Source of the DNA: Pseudomonadota bacterium
Lineage (GTDB): Bacteria > Pseudomonadota > Alphaproteobacteria > Rickettsiales > UBA1997
DNA: 64,000 nt
NCBI GenBank assembly: GCA_040386195.1
Contig: JAZKFV010000005.1
Coordinates: 40,961 to 104,960 of the forward strand
Direction: 5' to 3'
The position numbers and the translations under genes were made by a program. Under the pieces are notes generated by a model, which made no database searches, was not told the origin of the DNA, and worked only from the letters and a program-made list of their open reading frames with translations. Of the stretch, positions 8,927 to 52,879 are shown in pieces; positions within the stretch are counted from its first letter, which is position 1; each line of letters starts with the position of its first letter.

Positions 8927-9019
8927 TGTCATCCTGAGCGTAAGCGAAGGATCTCATGAGACTGGCATATTTTGTTTCAACGCGCCTCATGAGATCCTTC
9001 GCTTACGCTCAGGATGACA
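8927..9019. repeat. Family A palindromic element, copy A1 (intergenic)
   Basis: Sequence is TGTCATCCTGAGCGTAAGCGAAGGATCTCATGAGA…TCTCATGAGATCCTTCGCTTACGCTCAGGATGACA, with near-perfect arms of 33-35 bp. Confidence 0.9.
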
Positions 9020-9031
9020 CAGAATTATTAA

Positions 9032-9619
9032 TTATTTCGCAGCTCTTTCTTTATCCAACTCATCAAACAAACCTTTAACTGCTTCTTGAGATTTATTCAA
9101 ATTATCGCGAGAAAGATTGGCTTGTTTCAAGCGGTTTTCATACATCTTTTGGCTGTTTTGCAGATATTTGCTGTAATCTTCATTTTTCAAAATCATTCTG
9201 ATATATAAAGTTCCATCTTTAGCTTGATACATATTGATTCTTTTCGCACCAGACATTGGCATATTTTTTACCACTTCTTTAGTTGCTTGGCTGAAAACTT
9301 GCTCAACATCATTAACTTCGCCAACTTTAGCTTCTCTTAAAGCATCTTTAGTGATACGAGAAATTTCTGAGTTGATAGCAGAAGCGATATTAGCTTTAGC
9401 ATCAATTTCAGCTTGAGGAATTTGGAATTTAATACCACCAACACTTGGGCTAGCAATGCCAACTCCGGCAACGCCGTCTTTTTCATCCGGACTTACAACC
9501 CACTCCGGCAAATCGGCAATGTTTTGAGTTTTGTTATTTTTAGCTAAATCAGAAACAACTGGTTTAGAACAAGATAAAAGCAAAGCAGAAGATAAAATGA
9601 TAAATAATAATTTTTTCAT
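9032..9619 (-). CDS. LPP20-like lipoprotein
   Basis: Has a lipobox (ALLLSCS) followed by LPEWVVSP…GVAGVGIASPS…AEIDAKANIASAI. Confidence 0.5.
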   Translation of the reverse strand: MKKLLFIILSSALLLSCSKPVVSDLAKNNKTQNIADLPEWVVSPDEKDGVAGVGIASPSVGGIKFQIPQAEIDAKANIASAINSEISRITKDALREAKVGEVNDVEQVFSQATKEVVKNMPMSGAKRINMYQAKDGTLYIRMILKNEDYSKYLQNSQKMYENRLKQANLSRDNLNKSQEAVKGLFDELDKERAAK

Positions 9620-9692
9620 AACGAGTTTTTATTTGTTGTTAGTTTCTAAGAAATTTTTTGGTAGAAAATTAAAGTAAGGGTGGAAAATCAAG

Positions 9693-10802
9693 CTAATTAA
9701 TAATCTCTTTTCTAAAAATTAGCAATATACTTATTGCCGTCAGAATAATTACCATCATCCAAGTTGCCAAAAAAGTTGGAACTAATCCTGAAGATCCAAG
9801 TGCGTTAACAATGATAAAGCTGATATATAAAACCAATCCTACCGCTATGCCAAGCACAAAAATTATAATATTGTTACGACTGCGCACATTATTAACCGCA
9901 AAAAAAGCTGCCATCAACGCCATTGCGATAAATAGAAATGGTTTGGTTAAAAGTGAATTGTAATAAACTACGAATTTGCGTGGCGAGAAGCCTGAATCTT
10001 TTAAATCATTGATTAAATTCGGCAAATCATAAACTGAAAAAAGTCGGACATTTTCAAAATTATTTAATATTTTTTTGGTAATAAATTCCGCCTTTAAATT
10101 GGTAGCAATTTCAATATTATCTTTAGGCTGATTAATATTTCGACTATCATTAATCACGGCATTTTGAAGATTCCAGAATCCTTCTTCCAAAAACATATTT
10201 TTGGCATCAATTTTTTTATAGAATTTATGATTTTTGTCAAAAAACCATAAATTGACATTGGTCATTTTGAGGTTTTTACGATAAATTTTATCAGCTCTGA
10301 TAATGATATCTTCATTACTATTTAAAACATTTTCCTGTTTTAACCATATTCCATTTGGTGGCGCCAATAAATTCACTTCTTCTTTTTCAATTAATTTTTG
10401 CTCCATATTATTCAATTTTTTGCTCGCAGTAATTGATATTGGATTGAAAATCAGCACAAAAAATAAGCCGAGTAAAAAGGCACCGGCAGCAATTGGATAA
10501 AGGATTTGCCAGAATGACAAACCTGAGGAGCGCATCACGGTAATTTCGCTGCGAATTGAAAGTGAAAATAAAGTAATCATTGAAGAAATCATTATCAGAA
10601 AAATTGCAATATCTTCAATAAAGCTAGGAACTTGTAAAATATCGAGAAGAGCAATTTGCCAAAAACCGATTTGTTTGCCAGCGATGCGATCTAAAAGTTC
10701 AAAAATATTGATCATAGCAATCAGCAGAGAAACTGAAACGATCACCAAAGTAAAATTGATGAGGAATTTTTTAATGATGTAGAGATTGATTTTTGTTAGC
10801 AT
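9693..10802 (-). CDS. LPS export ABC transporter permease, LptF/LptG (YjgP/YjgQ) family
   Basis: 369 aa. The polytopic layout with a central soluble loop and the N-terminal YIIKKFLINF pattern are typical of this family. Confidence 0.75.
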   Translation of the reverse strand: MLTKINLYIIKKFLINFTLVIVSVSLLIAMINIFELLDRIAGKQIGFWQIALLDILQVPSFIEDIAIFLIMISSMITLFSLSIRSEITVMRSSGLSFWQILYPIAAGAFLLGLFFVLIFNPISITASKKLNNMEQKLIEKEEVNLLAPPNGIWLKQENVLNSNEDIIIRADKIYRKNLKMTNVNLWFFDKNHKFYKKIDAKNMFLEEGFWNLQNAVINDSRNINQPKDNIEIATNLKAEFITKKILNNFENVRLFSVYDLPNLINDLKDSGFSPRKFVVYYNSLLTKPFLFIAMALMAAFFAVNNVRSRNNIIIFVLGIAVGLVLYISFIIVNALGSSGLVPTFLATWMMVIILTAISILLIFRKEIIN

Positions 10803-51014: not shown

Positions 51015-51691
51015 ATTTTAAACCGATAACCCACCGCCGTTTCAGTAATTATATATTTGGGATTAAGTGGGTTATCTTGTAATTTTTGTCTGAGGTGCTG
51101 AATATAAATGCGTAAATAGTGATTACTATTAGTGTGATGTTTTCCCCAAATTTCTTGCAGCAATTGTTTGTAAGTAATTATCTTTCCTGCATTTTTAATT
51201 AAAATTGCCAAAATTTTATATTCAATTGGAGTTAGGTGAATATTGGCTCCTTTGACCAAAACTTGTCTTTGCTGCAAATCAACTTTCAAATCTCCGTTTT
51301 CAAAAATTGCTGAATTATTTGCCAAAGATATTTGCTGGCGACGCAGAACTGCTTTGATTCGCGCCAATAATTCTCCAGCGCTAAATGGCTTAGTTAAATA
51401 ATCATCCGCCCCAAATTCCAACGCGTCAACCTTGTCATTTTCTGCTTCTCTTGCTGAAAGAATAATGATGGGCACATTACTCCATCCACGAATTTGTTTG
51501 ATAATTTCAATGCCATCAATATCAGGCAAACTCAAATCTAGGATAATAATTGCCGGTGGATGAAAACTAGTTTGTTTCAAACCATCTTTGCCATTAATTG
51601 CAAAATCAATTTTGTAATCGTCAGATAAAATATTGCCCAGAAGCCTTCTAATTTCTGGCTCGTCTTCAATAATTAAAATTTCAGTTTTCAT
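51011..51691 (-). CDS. OmpR-family response regulator (KdpE-like)
   Basis: Has a receiver domain ([12 protein letters not shown]…[12 protein letters not shown]…SAR) and a winged-helix output domain (TPIEYKIL…GYRF). Confidence 0.8.
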
Positions 51692-52751
51692 TTTTTATAG
51701 GTATTGTGAAAGTGAATTTTGCACCGCCATCAATTTGGTTTTGCGCCCAAATTTTGCCGTGATGCAAATTAATTATAGTTTGGCAAATCGCCAAACCCAA
51801 ACCAGTTCCTTTTTCGGCAATTCCATTGTGATGATTAGTATAAAATTTATCAAAAATCTTTTTCTCTTCGCCAATTTCAATGCCGCTGCCGCTATCCAAA
51901 ATCACCACAACCATATTTTCATTTTCTTGATAAACAAAAATCGTGATGATGCCTTGCTCCTTGGTATATTTGGCGGAATTGTCTAAAAGATTGGCGATAA
52001 CTTGTTCAATTAAAGAACCGTCAATGGCAATCATTTCTAAATTATCGGCAATGTTGGTGATGATTTGATGATTTTGTAATCTGGTTTTAAGCCTTACCAA
52101 TGCAGCGCCGATCACTTCATCAATAAAATATAATTCTTTTTTGATCTTAATATTTCCTGATTCCAACCGAGTTATTTCCAATAAATTATTAATGATGTGC
52201 GATAATTTTTCGGCTTGATTATGAATTGAATTGGCGATTTGAGAAATATTATTATCGTTTTTTGCTAACTGCGAAATATTGGCGGAAAGCCCAATTATTG
52301 AGGTGAGCGGCGTTCTTAAATCGTGGGAAATTGAACTAAGCAAAGTATTTTTTAATTTTTCACCAGCAATTTCTAATTCTTTTTTCTGCACCGAAATAGT
52401 TTGTTTTTGTAACTTCGCCGCTTGCGTGGCAATCACCAAACCGGTAAGCAACATCACCAAAAAAGTTGTCCAATATGATTGATCATGAACATTAAAACTA
52501 TAAAGCGGTGGCACGAAGAAGAAGTTAAAAAGACTAACTGCTAAGAAAATATAAACTAGAGATGGAACCTTACCACATCTTGACGCAACAATTATCACAC
52601 CGACCAAATAAATCATTATTTGATCAATTGGAATTAAGAAATTGTCTAATAATTTATTAATGATGGTGAAGAAAATTGCGGTGAAAATTGCTTGGAAATA
52701 GAGGTTAAGATTGGTGTTTTTTAGGATTTGAAATAAATCGAGAAGTTTCAT
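51681..52751 (-). CDS. Sensor histidine kinase with a DUF4118-type membrane domain (KdpD C-terminal-like; no N-terminal Kdp/Usp sensor domains)
   Basis: The TM region has …FNFFFVPPLYSF.V…, followed by the H-box SHDLRTPLTSI and an HATPase domain (N-box DNSAKYT; G-box GTGLGLAI). Confidence 0.8.
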   Translation of the reverse strand: MKLLDLFQILKNTNLNLYFQAIFTAIFFTIINKLLDNFLIPIDQIMIYLVGVIIVASRCGKVPSLVYIFLAVSLFNFFFVPPLYSFNVHDQSYWTTFLVMLLTGLVIATQAAKLQKQTISVQKKELEIAGEKLKNTLLSSISHDLRTPLTSIIGLSANISQLAKNDNNISQIANSIHNQAEKLSHIINNLLEITRLESGNIKIKKELYFIDEVIGAALVRLKTRLQNHQIITNIADNLEMIAIDGSLIEQVIANLLDNSAKYTKEQGIITIFVYQENENMVVVILDSGSGIEIGEEKKIFDKFYTNHHNGIAEKGTGLGLAICQTIINLHHGKIWAQNQIDGGAKFTFTIPIKNEN

Positions 52752-52795
52752 TTTACTATTTTGAATTTTAATTCTCTTGTTGTATCACCGCAAGC

Positions 52796-52879
52796 TGTCA
52801 TCCTGAGCAAAGCGAAGGATCTCTTGAGTTAAAAACCCAAAGCCGAATCACGAGATCCTTCGCTTTGCTCAGGATGACA
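52796..52879. repeat. Family A palindromic element, copy A6 (intergenic)
   Basis: Sequence is TGTCATCCTGAGCAAAGCGAAGGATCTCTTGAG…CGAGATCCTTCGCTTTGCTCAGGATGACA. Confidence 0.9.

What the first reader, a model, noticed from the sequence alone, without database searches (positions are those of the whole stretch)
8927..52879. Family A: six copies of an ~85-95 bp GC-rich palindromic element with arm changes mirrored between the two arms
Copies lie at 8927, 18010, 19364, 30206, 45866 and 52796. All share the termini TGTCATCCTGAGC…GCGAAGGATC / GATCCTTCGC…GCTCAGGATGACA.

A short variable patch in the arms differs between copies, but the change is mirrored in the opposite arm:
- GCGTAAGCG / CGCTTACGC
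- GCGTAGCG / CGCTACGC
- GCTTTAGCG / CGCTAAAGC
- GCAAAGCG / CGCTTTGC

This implies either selection for the hairpin or a copying mechanism that templates one arm from the other.

The central loops are asymmetric. They appear homologous between copies in either orientation, for example A4 GAACCAAACCCAAGTCTGTCTCACGAG versus the reverse complement of A5, GAACCAAAACCGAACTCGTCTCATGAG.

The elements are much more GC-rich than their surroundings. They occur between genes, at gene ends and inside a gene, which resembles the behaviour of Rickettsia palindromic elements. No transposase lies in the window.
Basis: seen in the sequence. Interest (0 to 1): 0.55.

Follow-up and report, generated by a model that had tools for sequence, protein, structure and literature searches.

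The report
Ssn-type palindromic hairpin-repeat doublets
The six ~90-bp GC-rich palindromes are real copies of a selfish-type bacterial repeat whose two arms are the hairpin motif that, in many other bacteria, brackets small GIY-YIG (Ssn) single-strand DNA nucleases; this is a new member of a known kind (TGTC/CGTC-tagged REP dimers, Rickettsia RPE-4/6-like), with one copy inserted in frame in an enzyme gene.

Summary
There are six palindromes of 84-96 bp, made of 12 arms, with no solo or decayed arms in the window. Changes in the arm patch are mirrored between the two arms. The spacers are homologous in either orientation. One copy lies in frame inside an SDR gene, and two copies supply the stop codon of a host gene.

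Each arm is TGTCAT followed by a small hairpin: TCCT-GA-GC-loop-GC-GA-AGGA. The "variable patch" is that hairpin's apical loop.

The same 25-nt arm occurs in at least 120 species across many phyla. Elsewhere it forms the terminal inverted repeats of ~95-aa GIY-YIG genes: 62 of 80 metagenomic relatives have arms within 250 nt.

This matches the published Ssn/SRM system (Chenal 2025) and the CGTC/TGTC-tagged REP dimers (Di Nocera 2013), which include RPE-4/-6 and dRS3. The published SRM search pattern does not match these arms, because two G·A mismatches interrupt the stem.

No Ssn gene lies in the window or within ±10 kb of it, so mobilisation in trans is inferred, not shown.

Across orthologues of the in-gene copy, the arms evolve much more slowly than synonymous sites, while the spacer drifts. 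Arm-to-arm mismatches are mostly uncompensated.

Verdict: new member of a known kind, of moderate interest.

The parts
8927..9019 (+). Copy A1, 93 bp. Arms 8927-8960 and 8986-9019 form a perfect 34-bp inverted repeat; the apical patch is GTAA in both arms. It is intergenic, starting 13 nt after the stop of ORF 9032..9619(-) and lying upstream of the LPP20-like ORF 7767..8723(-).
   Evidence: (I14)
18010..18104 (+). Copy A2, 95 bp. Its first 11 nt (TG TCA TCC TGA) encode the last residues and the stop codon of the SpoU/TrmL-like methylase ORF 17556..18020(+). There is one patch mismatch and one further stem mismatch.
   Evidence: (I4)
19364..19449 (.). Copy A3, 86 bp, with a perfect 36-bp inverted repeat and a short spacer whose orientation is unclear. 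It fits exactly between the convergent stop codons of the aminotransferase ORF 18175..19362(+) and the YggT ORF 19452..19745(-). It carries a compensated CAGGAG/CTCCTG variant of the inner stem.
   Evidence: (I11)
30206..30301 (-). Copy A4, 96 bp, with its spacer in the opposite orientation to A1, A2 and A5. The patch is TTTA in both arms. On the minus strand its first 11 nt supply the stop of nadD-like ORF 30291..30887(-). Its other end lies 4 nt upstream of the ATG of ORF 29392..30201(-).
   Evidence: (I2, I10)
45866..45959 (+). Copy A5, 94 bp, inserted in frame in the SDR gene 45480..46334(-). It adds the peptide CHPERSEGSLAARHEPKPNSSHEILRCTQDD in a surface loop and has one T/G arm mismatch. 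The insertion is shared by four other lineages and is absent from close orthologues.
52796..52879 (-). Copy A6, 84 bp, with the patch AAA mirrored and the spacer in the A4 orientation. It is intergenic between the porin-like ORF 52900..54411(-) and the histidine kinase ORF 51681..52751(-). A Logan assembly contig of the same organism breaks here.
   Evidence: (I3)
45480..46334 (-). Host SDR (short-chain dehydrogenase) gene that carries A5. The Pfam adh_short match is split into two stretches by the insert.

Best explanation
Family A is a set of non-autonomous palindromic doublets, comparable to REPINs or MITEs. Each is built from two inverted copies of one 'Ssn-related' hairpin motif.

Each arm reads 5'-TGTCAT | TCCT-GA-GC-(3-4 nt loop)-GC-GA-AGGA | TC. 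That is a GTCAT tag followed by a small hairpin whose stem is interrupted by two G·A mismatches. In other bacteria the same arms are the terminal inverted repeats of ~95-aa single-domain GIY-YIG genes of the Ssn family. Characterised Ssn enzymes bind such hairpins in single-stranded DNA and cut a few nucleotides 5' of the tag, on one strand only.

In a doublet the tags point outwards, so each strand carries one cleavable motif at its own 5' end. This is the same geometry as motif-ssn-motif units.

The most likely history is that the doublets were spread by insertion, with an Ssn-type nuclease encoded elsewhere in the genome acting in trans on single-stranded DNA. Survivors are copies that landed where they do no harm: gene ends, intergenic spacers and one permissive protein loop.

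Shown here: the anatomy of the element, the arm-hairpin covariation, the association with GIY-YIG genes in other genomes, the presence/absence of the in-gene copy among orthologues, and nucleotide-level conservation of the arms.

Inferred, not shown: that this genome has a cognate Ssn, that Ssn is the mobilising enzyme, and that the intermediate is single-stranded.
For: Anatomy and copy number in the window.

These span Chloroflexota, Acidobacteriota, candidate-phyla-radiation groups (CPR), Omnitrophota, Bacillota, Planctomycetota, Bacteroidota and Proteobacteria.

Arms as terminal repeats of GIY-YIG genes:
- L086 (Chloroflexota) has arm, 20 nt, a 96-aa ORF matching Pfam GIY-YIG PF01541 (E = 5e-15), 35 nt, then an inverted arm.
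- L057 (Hymenobacter) and L056 (an alphaproteobacterium) have a doublet directly beside the gene.
- L105 has a 47%-identical GIY-YIG gene bracketed by canonical NTS-type arms.

Starting from the gene side: of 80 metagenomic relatives, 62 have a relaxed arm 10-mer in terminal-repeat orientation within 250 nt on at least one side, and 37 on both sides. That is 207 hits against about 1 expected. Typical spacing is 40-60 nt, and many ORFs end inside the right arm.

Local hairpin: 409 of 443 arms have a complementary 4-nt basal stem, in 11 covarying types, and the inner stems also covary.

Insertion: the SDR insert is present in P0001-P0005 and absent in P0008, P0009, P0012, P0013 and P0015. A different GTCAT-hairpin doublet sits in the same loop in P0007.

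Constraint on the arms: variable columns are 21/56 in the arms (5/18 at third codon positions), 24/38 in the spacer and 179/251 at host third positions, with Fisher P = 3e-4 to 4e-6.

No target-site duplication is seen at any copy.

Literature:
- PMC11893778: Ssn biochemistry; 71% of ssnA homologues are flanked by SRMs; more than 300 SRMs in Rickettsia and Wolbachia.
- PMC3733652: CGTC/TGTC-tagged REPs occur mostly as dimers, some inside genes, and equal RPE-4/-6 and dRS3; no transposase was known for them.
- PMC3767692: the ATGAC motif occurs in RPE-4/-6/-7 and in WPEs.
Against: No GIY-YIG gene lies in the 64-kb window or in the ~7 kb and ~10 kb beyond its ends. The rest of the genome could not be searched.

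The published degenerate SRM pattern does not match these arms.

Nobody has shown that Ssn nucleases transpose anything. The only demonstrated role is restriction of transforming single-stranded DNA in Neisseria.

Only 4 of the 120 genome loci found through the arm motif hold a GIY-YIG gene within 8 kb.

Homology of the flanked GIY-YIG genes to N. meningitidis SsnA itself was not tested directly.

The predicted stability of a single arm is weak (-2.7 kcal/mol, not significant). Support for the arm hairpin therefore rests on covariation.
Confidence: 0.7

Rival explanations
1. The elements are primarily structured RNA elements, acting as mRNA 3'-end stabilisers, RNase III sites, terminators or an sRNA. 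On this view the long hairpin is kept by selection on the transcript.
For: Five of the six copies lie at or just after gene 3' ends. The predicted hairpins are very stable. Five pairs show changes on both sides. There is a below-threshold match to Rfam RF02901 AaHKsRNA41, at 45 bits against a gathering score of 97; that family's consensus carries a related palindrome. Di Nocera 2013 argues that many REPs act as RNA elements (PMC3733652).
Against: No family reaches its Rfam gathering score. None of the six copies has a T-tail or is called terminator-like on either strand. Spacer orientation is not tied to the direction of transcription. In orthologues of the in-gene copy, arm-to-arm mismatches accumulate without compensation while each arm's own sequence stays conserved. 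Across phyla, covariation supports the small hairpin within each arm, which competes with the long hairpin. An RNA role could still be a secondary effect.
Confidence: 0.12
2. The elements are REPINs mobilised by a RAYT, a REP-associated tyrosine transposase of the IS200/IS605 type.
For: The architecture is the same: two inverted hairpin repeats with a conserved spacer, no target-site duplication, and locations at gene ends (PMC3116915).
Against: The tag is TGTCAT, not GTAG. In other genomes the arms bracket GIY-YIG genes. Di Nocera 2013 found no RAYT flanked by CGTC-type units (PMC3733652). I did not scan the fetched loci for Y1 transposases.
Confidence: 0.05
3. The elements are classical MITEs, internally deleted copies of a DDE-type insertion sequence, moved by that IS's transposase.
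For: The elements have terminal inverted repeats, are small, occur in multiple copies, and are richer in GC than the host DNA.
Against: There are no target-site duplications at any of the six copies. The inverted repeats are themselves covarying hairpins with a one-sided tag. The only gene found between such arms is a ~95-aa GIY-YIG gene.
Confidence: 0.04
4. The copies are relics kept or homogenised only by gene conversion between dispersed copies or between the two arms. On this view there is no present-day nuclease partner and no function.
For: Arms are conserved far more than the spacer in orthologous copies, as conversion from other copies would produce. The apical-loop base is C/C in two orthologues and A/A in two others, as arm-to-arm or copy-to-copy conversion would give.
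Against: Conversion does not explain why the same 25-nt arm is kept across phyla, nor why it tracks GIY-YIG genes. Uncompensated arm mismatches show that arm-to-arm correction is inefficient.
Confidence: 0.09

Closest known systems
Ssn-related motifs (SRM; NTS in Neisseria) with Ssn single-domain GIY-YIG ssDNA nucleases (Chenal et al. 2025, PMC11893778)
   Same: Both have a 5' (H)GTCAT tag followed by a short hairpin and a short 3' tail. Both occur as inverted repeats bracketing a ~95-aa GIY-YIG gene. Both are present in many copies elsewhere in the genome and are enriched in Rickettsiales-type symbionts. A 47%-identical GIY-YIG gene is bracketed by canonical NTS-type arms in L105.
   Different: The stem here is interrupted by two G·A mismatches, so the published SRM pattern does not match. 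In this window the motif occurs only as tight inverted doublets with a conserved spacer, not singly or in clusters. One copy lies in frame inside a gene, whereas only 2% of NTS copies are inside genes in N. meningitidis. No ssn gene is seen in the window.
CGTC-(TGTC-)tagged REPs, families CGTC-1 to -4, including Rickettsia RPE-4/RPE-6 and Neisseria dRS3 (Di Nocera et al. 2013, PMC3733652; ATGAC motif in RPE-4/-6/-7 and WPE, PMC3767692)
   Same: Both have a TGTC/CGTC tag, and the stem begins with AT. Both have a 3-nt tail and occur predominantly as inverted dimers with conserved spacers. Both are found at gene 3' ends and sometimes inside genes, where they add 20-30 residues. Both are commonest in alphaproteobacteria.
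   Different: The described stems are 8-9 continuous base pairs with 4-5 nt loops. Here the stem has 9 positions, two of which are G·A mismatches, and the loop is 3-4 nt. The tail is CTC rather than CCA. Sequence identity to the four described families could not be checked because the consensus figures are not held.
REPIN-RAYT systems (Bertels & Rainey 2011, PMC3116915)
   Same: Both are doublets of inverted hairpin repeats acting as the replicating unit. Both depend on a nuclease or transposase supplied in trans that recognises single-stranded hairpins, with no target duplication.
   Different: The tag differs (GTAG) and the enzyme class differs (HUH/Y1 transposase rather than GIY-YIG). The resemblance is by analogy, not homology.
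Rickettsia palindromic elements of the RPE-1 type (Ogata et al. 2000; reviewed in PMC10969869)
   Same: Both are palindromic repeats that insert in frame into surface loops of housekeeping enzymes. In both, orthologues occur with and without the insert.
   Different: RPE-1/-2/-3 are 100-150 bp and are depleted in the ATGAC motif (PMC3767692), so they appear to have a separate origin.
Correia/NEMIS, ERIC and other bacterial MITEs
   Same: They are small, palindromic, multicopy and often co-transcribed with neighbouring genes.
   Different: Those elements have target-site duplications and terminal repeats derived from insertion sequences. Family A has neither.

Membership tests
SRM / Ssn system (PMC11893778) | The motif matches the published degenerate search pattern HGTCWYN(0-2)YYVSBRHN(0-5)WNVSBRGN(0-2)RNCYNB. 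| tested here: not met
   There are 0 matches in the window, and none of the four arms tested on their own (A1, A3, A4, A6 left arms) matches. The control NTS sequence does match. The pattern also misses an NTS-like doublet in relative L203.
SRM / Ssn system (PMC11893778) | The hairpin repeat, with a conserved 5' GTCAT-type tag, flanks genes for single-domain GIY-YIG (Ssn) proteins in inverted orientation. | tested here: met
   This was met in other genomes only: L086, L056, L057, L134, L183 and L200. Of 80 relatives, 62 have arms within 250 nt. It could not be tested for the source genome.
SRM / Ssn system (PMC11893778) | A cognate ssn gene is present in the same genome. | not testable with these tools
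   None lies in the window or in the flanking ~7 kb and ~10 kb. The remainder of the metagenome-assembled genome cannot be scanned.
SRM / Ssn system (PMC11893778) | The flanked GIY-YIG protein belongs to cd10448, i.e. is homologous to N. meningitidis SsnA. | tested here: inconclusive
   The evidence is a Pfam PF01541 match, 46-48% identity to a GIY-YIG gene bracketed by canonical NTS arms, and a weak hit to UPF0213 structure 1zg2. There was no NCBIfam hit, and neither CDD nor the SsnA sequence was available.
SRM / Ssn system (PMC11893778) | The nuclease cuts single-stranded DNA 5' of the motif, in a strand-specific way. | not testable with these tools
   This is a biochemical property.
CGTC/TGTC-tagged REPs (PMC3733652) | A CGTC tag, or its TGTC/CCTC variants, is present at one end. 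| tested here: met
   All 12 arms start with TGTC.
CGTC/TGTC-tagged REPs (PMC3733652) | The stem is 8-9 bp starting with A-T and T-A, the loop is 4-5 nt, and there is a 3-nt tail. | tested here: inconclusive
   The stem starts with AT and spans 9 positions, but positions 6-7 are G·A/A·G. The loop is 3-4 nt and the tail is CTC.
CGTC/TGTC-tagged REPs (PMC3733652) | Units are predominantly organised as inverted dimers with conserved spacers, and some lie inside genes. | tested here: met
   All 6 of 6 occur as dimers. Spacers are homologous in five copies. One copy is in frame inside a gene.
REPIN/RAYT | A GTAG tag is present and the repeats are associated with a Y1 (RAYT) transposase gene. | tested here: not met
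   The tag is TGTCAT. The gene found between such arms is GIY-YIG. The fetched loci were not scanned for RAYT genes, and the literature reports none flanked by CGTC units (PMC3733652).
Rickettsia palindromic elements (behaviour) | The palindromic repeat is inserted in frame in a conserved protein, with orthologues that lack it. | tested here: met
   The SDR insert adds about 31 residues. It is present in P0001-P0005 and absent in P0008, P0009, P0012, P0013 and P0015.
Rickettsia palindromic elements (RPE-1 to RPE-8 sequence families) | The sequence matches a published RPE consensus or HMM. | not testable with these tools
The only link is the shared ATGAC/GTCAT motif reported for RPE-4/-6/-7 (PMC3767692).
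Classical MITE | Target-site duplication and terminal repeats shared with an insertion sequence. | tested here: not met
   There are no direct repeats at any of the six boundaries. No insertion sequence with these ends was seen.
Rfam families | The score reaches a family's gathering threshold. | tested here: not met
   Only the 16S rRNA passes. The best match to the elements is RF02901 at 45 bits against a threshold of 97. The remaining hits are generic long-hairpin microRNA models.

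The most novel reading that the evidence does not exclude
Ssn-type GIY-YIG single-strand nucleases may be the long-missing mobilising enzymes of the whole CGTC/TGTC-tagged REP superfamily. 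That superfamily includes the Rickettsia-style palindromes that insert in frame into proteins. This would make GIY-YIG a new class of hairpin-directed 'transposase'.

On this reading the doublet, rather than the single hairpin, is the replicating unit. Its two apical loops are regenerated or corrected from one another through a fold-back single-stranded intermediate, which would explain the mirrored patches.

The nucleotide-level conservation of the arms inside a host gene would then mean that resident copies stay under selection. They would be either substrates still used by the nuclease or host-useful single-stranded DNA restriction or recombination sites.
Probability: 0.3. Interest if true: 0.65.

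Novelty: new member of a known kind. Interest (0 to 1): 0.38.

Why it matters
It ties three separately described things together with one concrete example:
- Rickettsia-type palindromes that insert into proteins.
- The "orphan" CGTC/TGTC-tagged REP dimers.
- The recently found Ssn nuclease/hairpin pairs.

It also shows that one widespread hairpin class, with two G·A mismatches in its stem, escapes the published search pattern.

The orthologue series of the in-gene copy is a natural experiment. The spacer drifts at the synonymous rate while the arms stay conserved, which bears on whether such repeats are junk or are kept for a reason.

In practical terms, these repeats break assemblies: a Logan contig of the same organism ends at A6. 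They also create spurious or altered gene ends, which annotation should expect.

Tried and rejected
- Full-text search for the arm sequence returned only unrelated primer matches.
- Searches combining GIY-YIG with MITE, REP or RPE terms found nothing directly. The GIY-YIG superfamily survey does not mention these repeats.
- Rfam gave no family at gathering score. The microRNA hits are generic long-hairpin matches and were discarded.
- Intrinsic terminator: rejected, as there are no T-tails.
- Other GTCAT-hairpin families in the window: none. This covers the NTS-type search, the fixed-spacing search and a generic GTCAT-plus-hairpin scan.
- GIY-YIG in the window or its extensions: none.
- Exact look-ups of two window proteins failed.
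- NCBIfam gave no name for the GIY-YIG proteins. PDB gave only a weak UPF0213 hit.
- The supplementary tables of the Ssn paper are not held.
- Viral contigs carry the arm in 77 stretches, but no Ssn-like ORF was found in those stretches.
- Nuclease specificity as the cause of the mirrored patch: rejected. Arms flanking the same ssn gene usually differ in their apical part, with 5 of 23 identical.
- Chance or assembly artefact: rejected.

Full report
**1.

The 13-nt terminus TGTCATCCTGAGC occurs 12 times in the window, as six inverted pairs at exactly the stated coordinates. Shuffles give 0.66 expected matches, and none of 100 shuffles reached 12. Alignment of the six copies shows the invariant outer arm (TGTCATCCTGAG), a short variable patch, the invariant AGCGAAGGATC, a partly conserved inner stem and a variable spacer.

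The inverted arms are 34-44 nt long and 88-100% complementary. As single strands the copies fold at -55 to -69 kcal/mol, with z-scores of -9.6 to -16.

The patch is mirrored exactly in four copies and differs at one position in A2 and A5. RNAalifold finds five pairs with changes on both sides.

A4 matches the reverse complement of A5 over 64 nt at 81%, and with A4 and A6 reversed, five spacers align.

Element GC is 0.46-0.55 against 0.358 for the window. A profile built from the 12 arms finds only those 12, so the window holds no solo or decayed arm.

**2. Setting in the window**

The window looks like a Rickettsiales-type alphaproteobacterium:
- GC is 36%.
- It has a lone 16S rRNA gene with no tRNA or 23S gene nearby.
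- The exact SDR protein is on record as coming from a 'Pseudomonadota bacterium' metagenome-assembled genome, on a 140.6-kb contig. Its nearest named relatives are Rickettsiaceae and Rickettsiales genomes.

Positions of the six copies:
- A1 and A6 lie between same-strand genes.
- A3 fits exactly between two convergent stop codons.
- A2 and A4 overlap the 3' ends of a SpoU/TrmL-like gene and a nadD-like gene. Both proteins now end ...SS*, read from TG-TCA-TCC-TGA of the element.
- A5 lies inside an SDR gene without breaking the frame, adding CHPERSEGS...EILRCTQDD.

No copy has a target-site duplication. None has a T-tail or is called terminator-like.

**3. The in-gene copy is a true insertion**

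Among SDR orthologues, P0001-P0005 (78-88% identity) carry the insert. P0008, P0009, P0012, P0013, P0015 and others lack it and are about 255 aa long.

DNA of an empty orthologue (L209) and of filled ones (L203, L205, L206, L207) confirms this.

The same loop holds a different GTCAT-hairpin doublet in P0007 (L208 478-541). It holds further unrelated inserts in P0006, P0010, P0011, P0014 and P0030. This loop is therefore a tolerated or preferred landing site. This is the behaviour described for Rickettsia palindromic elements (PMC10969869).

**4. What the arm is**

The arm is more than half of a palindrome. Read 5'-3' it is TGTCAT, then TCCT-GA-GC-(loop)-GC-GA-AGGA, then TC. That is a small hairpin whose stem has five Watson-Crick pairs, two G·A mismatches and two G-C pairs.

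The 'variable patch' is the apical loop of this small hairpin.

Thermodynamic prediction for one arm is weak (-2.7 kcal/mol, not significant), but covariation is strong:
- Among 443 arms of this general form in the loci fetched up to that point and the window, 409 have a perfectly complementary 4-nt basal stem.
- These fall into 11 different types, including TCCT/AGGA, TTCT/AGAA, TGCT/AGCA, TTCC/GGAA and TCCC/GGGA.
- The inner stems also vary in length and sequence while staying self-complementary.

**5. Where else the arm occurs**

The hits include Chloroflexota, Acidobacteriota, Saccharibacteria and other candidate-phyla-radiation (CPR) groups, Omnitrophota, Lachnospiraceae, Planctomycetota, Gemmatimonadota, Nitrospirales, Bacteroidota and several proteobacterial classes. 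The arm often occurs as an inverted doublet.

It also occurs in 77 stretches of IMG/VR viral contigs.

**6. The gene it travels with**

In L086 (Chloroflexota) the two arms bracket a 96-aa ORF, at 20 nt and 35 nt from its ends. The ORF matches Pfam GIY-YIG with E = 5e-15.

L057 (Hymenobacter glaciei) and L056 (an alphaproteobacterium) have a doublet directly next to such a gene. In L105 a 47%-identical GIY-YIG gene is bracketed by a different arm, GTCATTCCCGCGAAGGCGGGAATCC.

Starting instead from the protein, I fetched 80 metagenomic relatives:
- 62 have a relaxed arm 10-mer (GTCATYYBGA) in terminal-repeat orientation within 250 nt on at least one side, and 37 on both sides.
- That is 207 nearby hits where about one is expected by chance.
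- The usual layout is arm, 40-60 nt, gene, 40-60 nt, inverted arm. Many ORFs run into the right arm and end ...DPSLRSG*.

From the repeat side, only 4 of 120 loci hold the gene within 8 kb, three of them within 100 nt of the motif. Most arms therefore sit far from any such gene, as expected for non-autonomous copies.

**7. This is a published system**

Chenal et al. 2025 (PMC11893778) describe the Ssn family of single-domain GIY-YIG proteins (CDD cd10448):
- The Ssn genes are flanked by hairpin repeats called SRM. The Neisseria version, NTS, is CGTCATTCCCGCGMAVGCGGGAATCYRG.
- The enzymes bind the hairpin in single-stranded DNA and cut upstream of it, on one strand only.
- 71% of homologues have an SRM nearby.
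- Genomes with more than 300 SRMs include Rickettsia and Wolbachia.
- The authors note that NTS-ssnA-NTS looks like an insertion sequence, and compare it with the IS200/IS605, REP and RAYT systems.

Earlier, Di Nocera et al. 2013 (PMC3733652) defined CGTC-tagged REPs:
- The tag is often TGTC, the stem starts with AT, and there is a 3-nt tail.
- They occur mostly as inverted dimers with conserved spacers, sometimes inside genes.
- They equal RPE-4, RPE-6 and dRS3, and had no known transposase.

Matsutani et al. 2013 (PMC3767692) noted the ATGAC motif in RPE-4/-6/-7 and in Wolbachia palindromic elements (WPEs).

Family A fits this superfamily by tag, geometry, dimer organisation and behaviour. 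It differs in the G·A-interrupted stem. Because of that, the published SRM search pattern finds nothing in the window and does not match the arms tested, although it does match an NTS control.

**8. The mirrored patch**

Across the window and the genome loci, 20 of 29 short doublets have identical patches in the two arms. Permutation gives 4.8 expected, with a maximum of 11 in 5000 trials.

For arms that flank an ssn gene about 350 bp apart, the basal stem matches in 18 of 23 cases, but the apical part matches in only 5 of 23.

Mirroring is therefore not dictated by nuclease specificity. It goes with the tight palindromic architecture.

**9. What orthologues of the in-gene copy show**

The five orthologous in-gene copies act as a clock. 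The fraction of variable alignment columns is:

| Region | Variable columns |
|---|---|
| Spacer | 24/38 |
| Host gene, third codon positions | 179/251 |
| Arms, all positions | 21/56 |
| Arms, third codon positions | 5/18 |

The spacer is close to the host's third positions, so the insertion is as old as the split between these lineages. The arms are significantly less variable than host third positions (Fisher P = 4e-6 for all arm positions, 3e-4 for arm third positions).

The arms are thus constrained at the nucleotide level, not through the encoded peptide.

However, the two arms of one copy drift apart. Arm-to-arm mismatches number 1, 2, 3, 6 and at least 8 in the five orthologues. I saw only two compensated events:
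- TGCCA/TGGCA in L207.
- The loop base, which is C/C in two orthologues and A/A in two others.

I read this as constraint on each arm as a recognition motif, plus occasional concerted change. It does not look like steady selection for the long hairpin.

The mirrored state of the window's near-perfect copies then most likely reflects how copies are made or filtered. Either only doublets with matching arms replicate, as argued for REPINs, or the arms are corrected against each other in a fold-back single-stranded intermediate. I could not tell these two apart.

**10. Mechanism proposed, and its limits**

In a doublet the tags face outwards, so each strand carries one motif in the cleavable orientation at its own 5' end. 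This is the same geometry as around ssn genes.

The most economical reading is that Family A copies are gene-less derivatives or partners of motif-ssn-motif units. On this reading they are acted on in trans by an Ssn nuclease on single-stranded DNA, and they are kept only where they do no harm.

What is not shown:
- That this genome has an ssn gene. None lies in the window or in the extra ~7 kb and ~10 kb recovered from Logan contigs of the same organism.
- That Ssn moves DNA at all.
- That the flanked GIY-YIG proteins are cd10448 members. This rests on Pfam, on 46-48% identity to an NTS-flanked gene and on a weak UPF0213 structure hit. NCBIfam gave no hit.

**11. Rivals**

- An RNA-level role (stabiliser, RNase III site or sRNA) is possible as a side effect. 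It is hinted at by a below-threshold match to Rfam RF02901, an Aggregatibacter sRNA model that contains a related palindrome. It does not explain the within-arm covariation, the link to the GIY-YIG gene or the uncompensated arm drift.
- RAYT-driven REPINs and DDE-type MITEs fail on the tag, on the associated gene and on the absence of target duplications.
- Pure gene conversion among relic copies could explain arm conservation. It cannot explain conservation across phyla.

**12. Verdict**

Its interpretation was close on behaviour (RPE-like) but missed the hairpin inside each arm and the nuclease partner.

It is a new member of a known kind: an SRM / TGTC-tagged REP dimer family with a G·A-interrupted stem, in a Rickettsiales-like genome.

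Interest is moderate. The most useful by-products are the evidence that a common SRM class escapes the published pattern, and the orthologue series showing arm conservation with spacer drift.

Noticed in passing
window 46341-46416, 48086-48171, 56077-56194, 31677-31720, 30644-30687: A second repeat family is present. It consists of inverted arrays of the heptamer AGTCGTA/TACGACT around a short core. One array lies in frame in the nadD-like gene, giving the peptide LVVSRKSLVVSR. A related peptide, SRKSLVISQKLK, occupies the SDR loop in orthologue P0014.
   Followed up: partly
window 48236-49732 (-), with 48046-48082 and 49822-49858: There is a lone 16S rRNA gene, with no tRNA or 23S gene anywhere in the 64 kb. 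It is flanked by a perfect 37-nt inverted repeat, probably the processing stem. An unlinked 16S gene is typical of Rickettsiales.
   Followed up: partly
SDR loop: window 45866-45959; L208 478-541; proteins P0006, P0007, P0010, P0011, P0014, P0030: The same surface loop of the SDR enzyme carries different inserts in different lineages. These include Family A, an NTS-like doublet (CGTCATCCYGGCGAAAGCCGGGATC...), a heptamer-type peptide and others. Close orthologues have an empty site, so this loop is an insertion hot spot.
   Followed up: partly
L209 4239/4317, 7562/7632, 10884/10952, 9514-9540; L203 9929/10005, 14417/14484: Relatives of the source organism carry several other GTCAT-hairpin doublet families in intergenic spacers, for example GTCATCCCCGACTTGATCGGGGATCC and CGTCATCCCGATGTAAATCGGGATCC. 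One is a minimal single-hairpin palindrome tagged on both strands. None of these families is present in the window.
   Followed up: partly
L153 (912-1000 region), L156/L159 (1276-1326 and 1874-1937), L246 8595-8969: Arms also occur in tandem arrays. Next to ssn genes the period is 21-22 nt. In one viral contig there are five copies at an 87-nt period.
   Followed up: no
L210-L286 (IMG/VR): The exact arm motif is present in 77 stretches of viral contigs. No Ssn-like ORF was detected in those stretches. Whether these contigs are phages, prophage borders or mis-binned host DNA was not examined.
   Followed up: partly
window 18004-18151 and 19286-19455 versus Rfam RF02901: The consensus of the Rfam family AaHKsRNA41 (Aggregatibacter sRNA 41) contains a related palindrome, GCUGAGC..CGAAGCAUC / GAUG.UUCG..GCUCAGC. 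This suggests that this 'sRNA' model is partly built on a repeat of the same superfamily.
   Followed up: no
L129, L169, L184, L192, L200 (ssn ORF 3' ends); window 18010-18020 and 30291-30301: Many ssn ORFs read into their right arm and end ...DPSLRSG* or ...DSSLRSE*, so the arm supplies the stop codon. In the window the same arm end supplies ...SS* to two host genes. Such arm-encoded tails are a likely source of odd C-termini in annotations.
   Followed up: partly
window 30199-30213 (minus strand): The outer end of A4 (..CAGGATGACA) places an AGGA about 8 nt upstream of the ATG of ORF 29392..30201(-). The element may therefore provide, or sequester, that gene's ribosome-binding site.
   Followed up: no
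L201 end (17455-17482) = window ~52796-52879: A Logan assembly contig of the same organism (SRR26324626) ends inside copy A6. This shows that these repeats fragment short-read assemblies.
   Followed up: no
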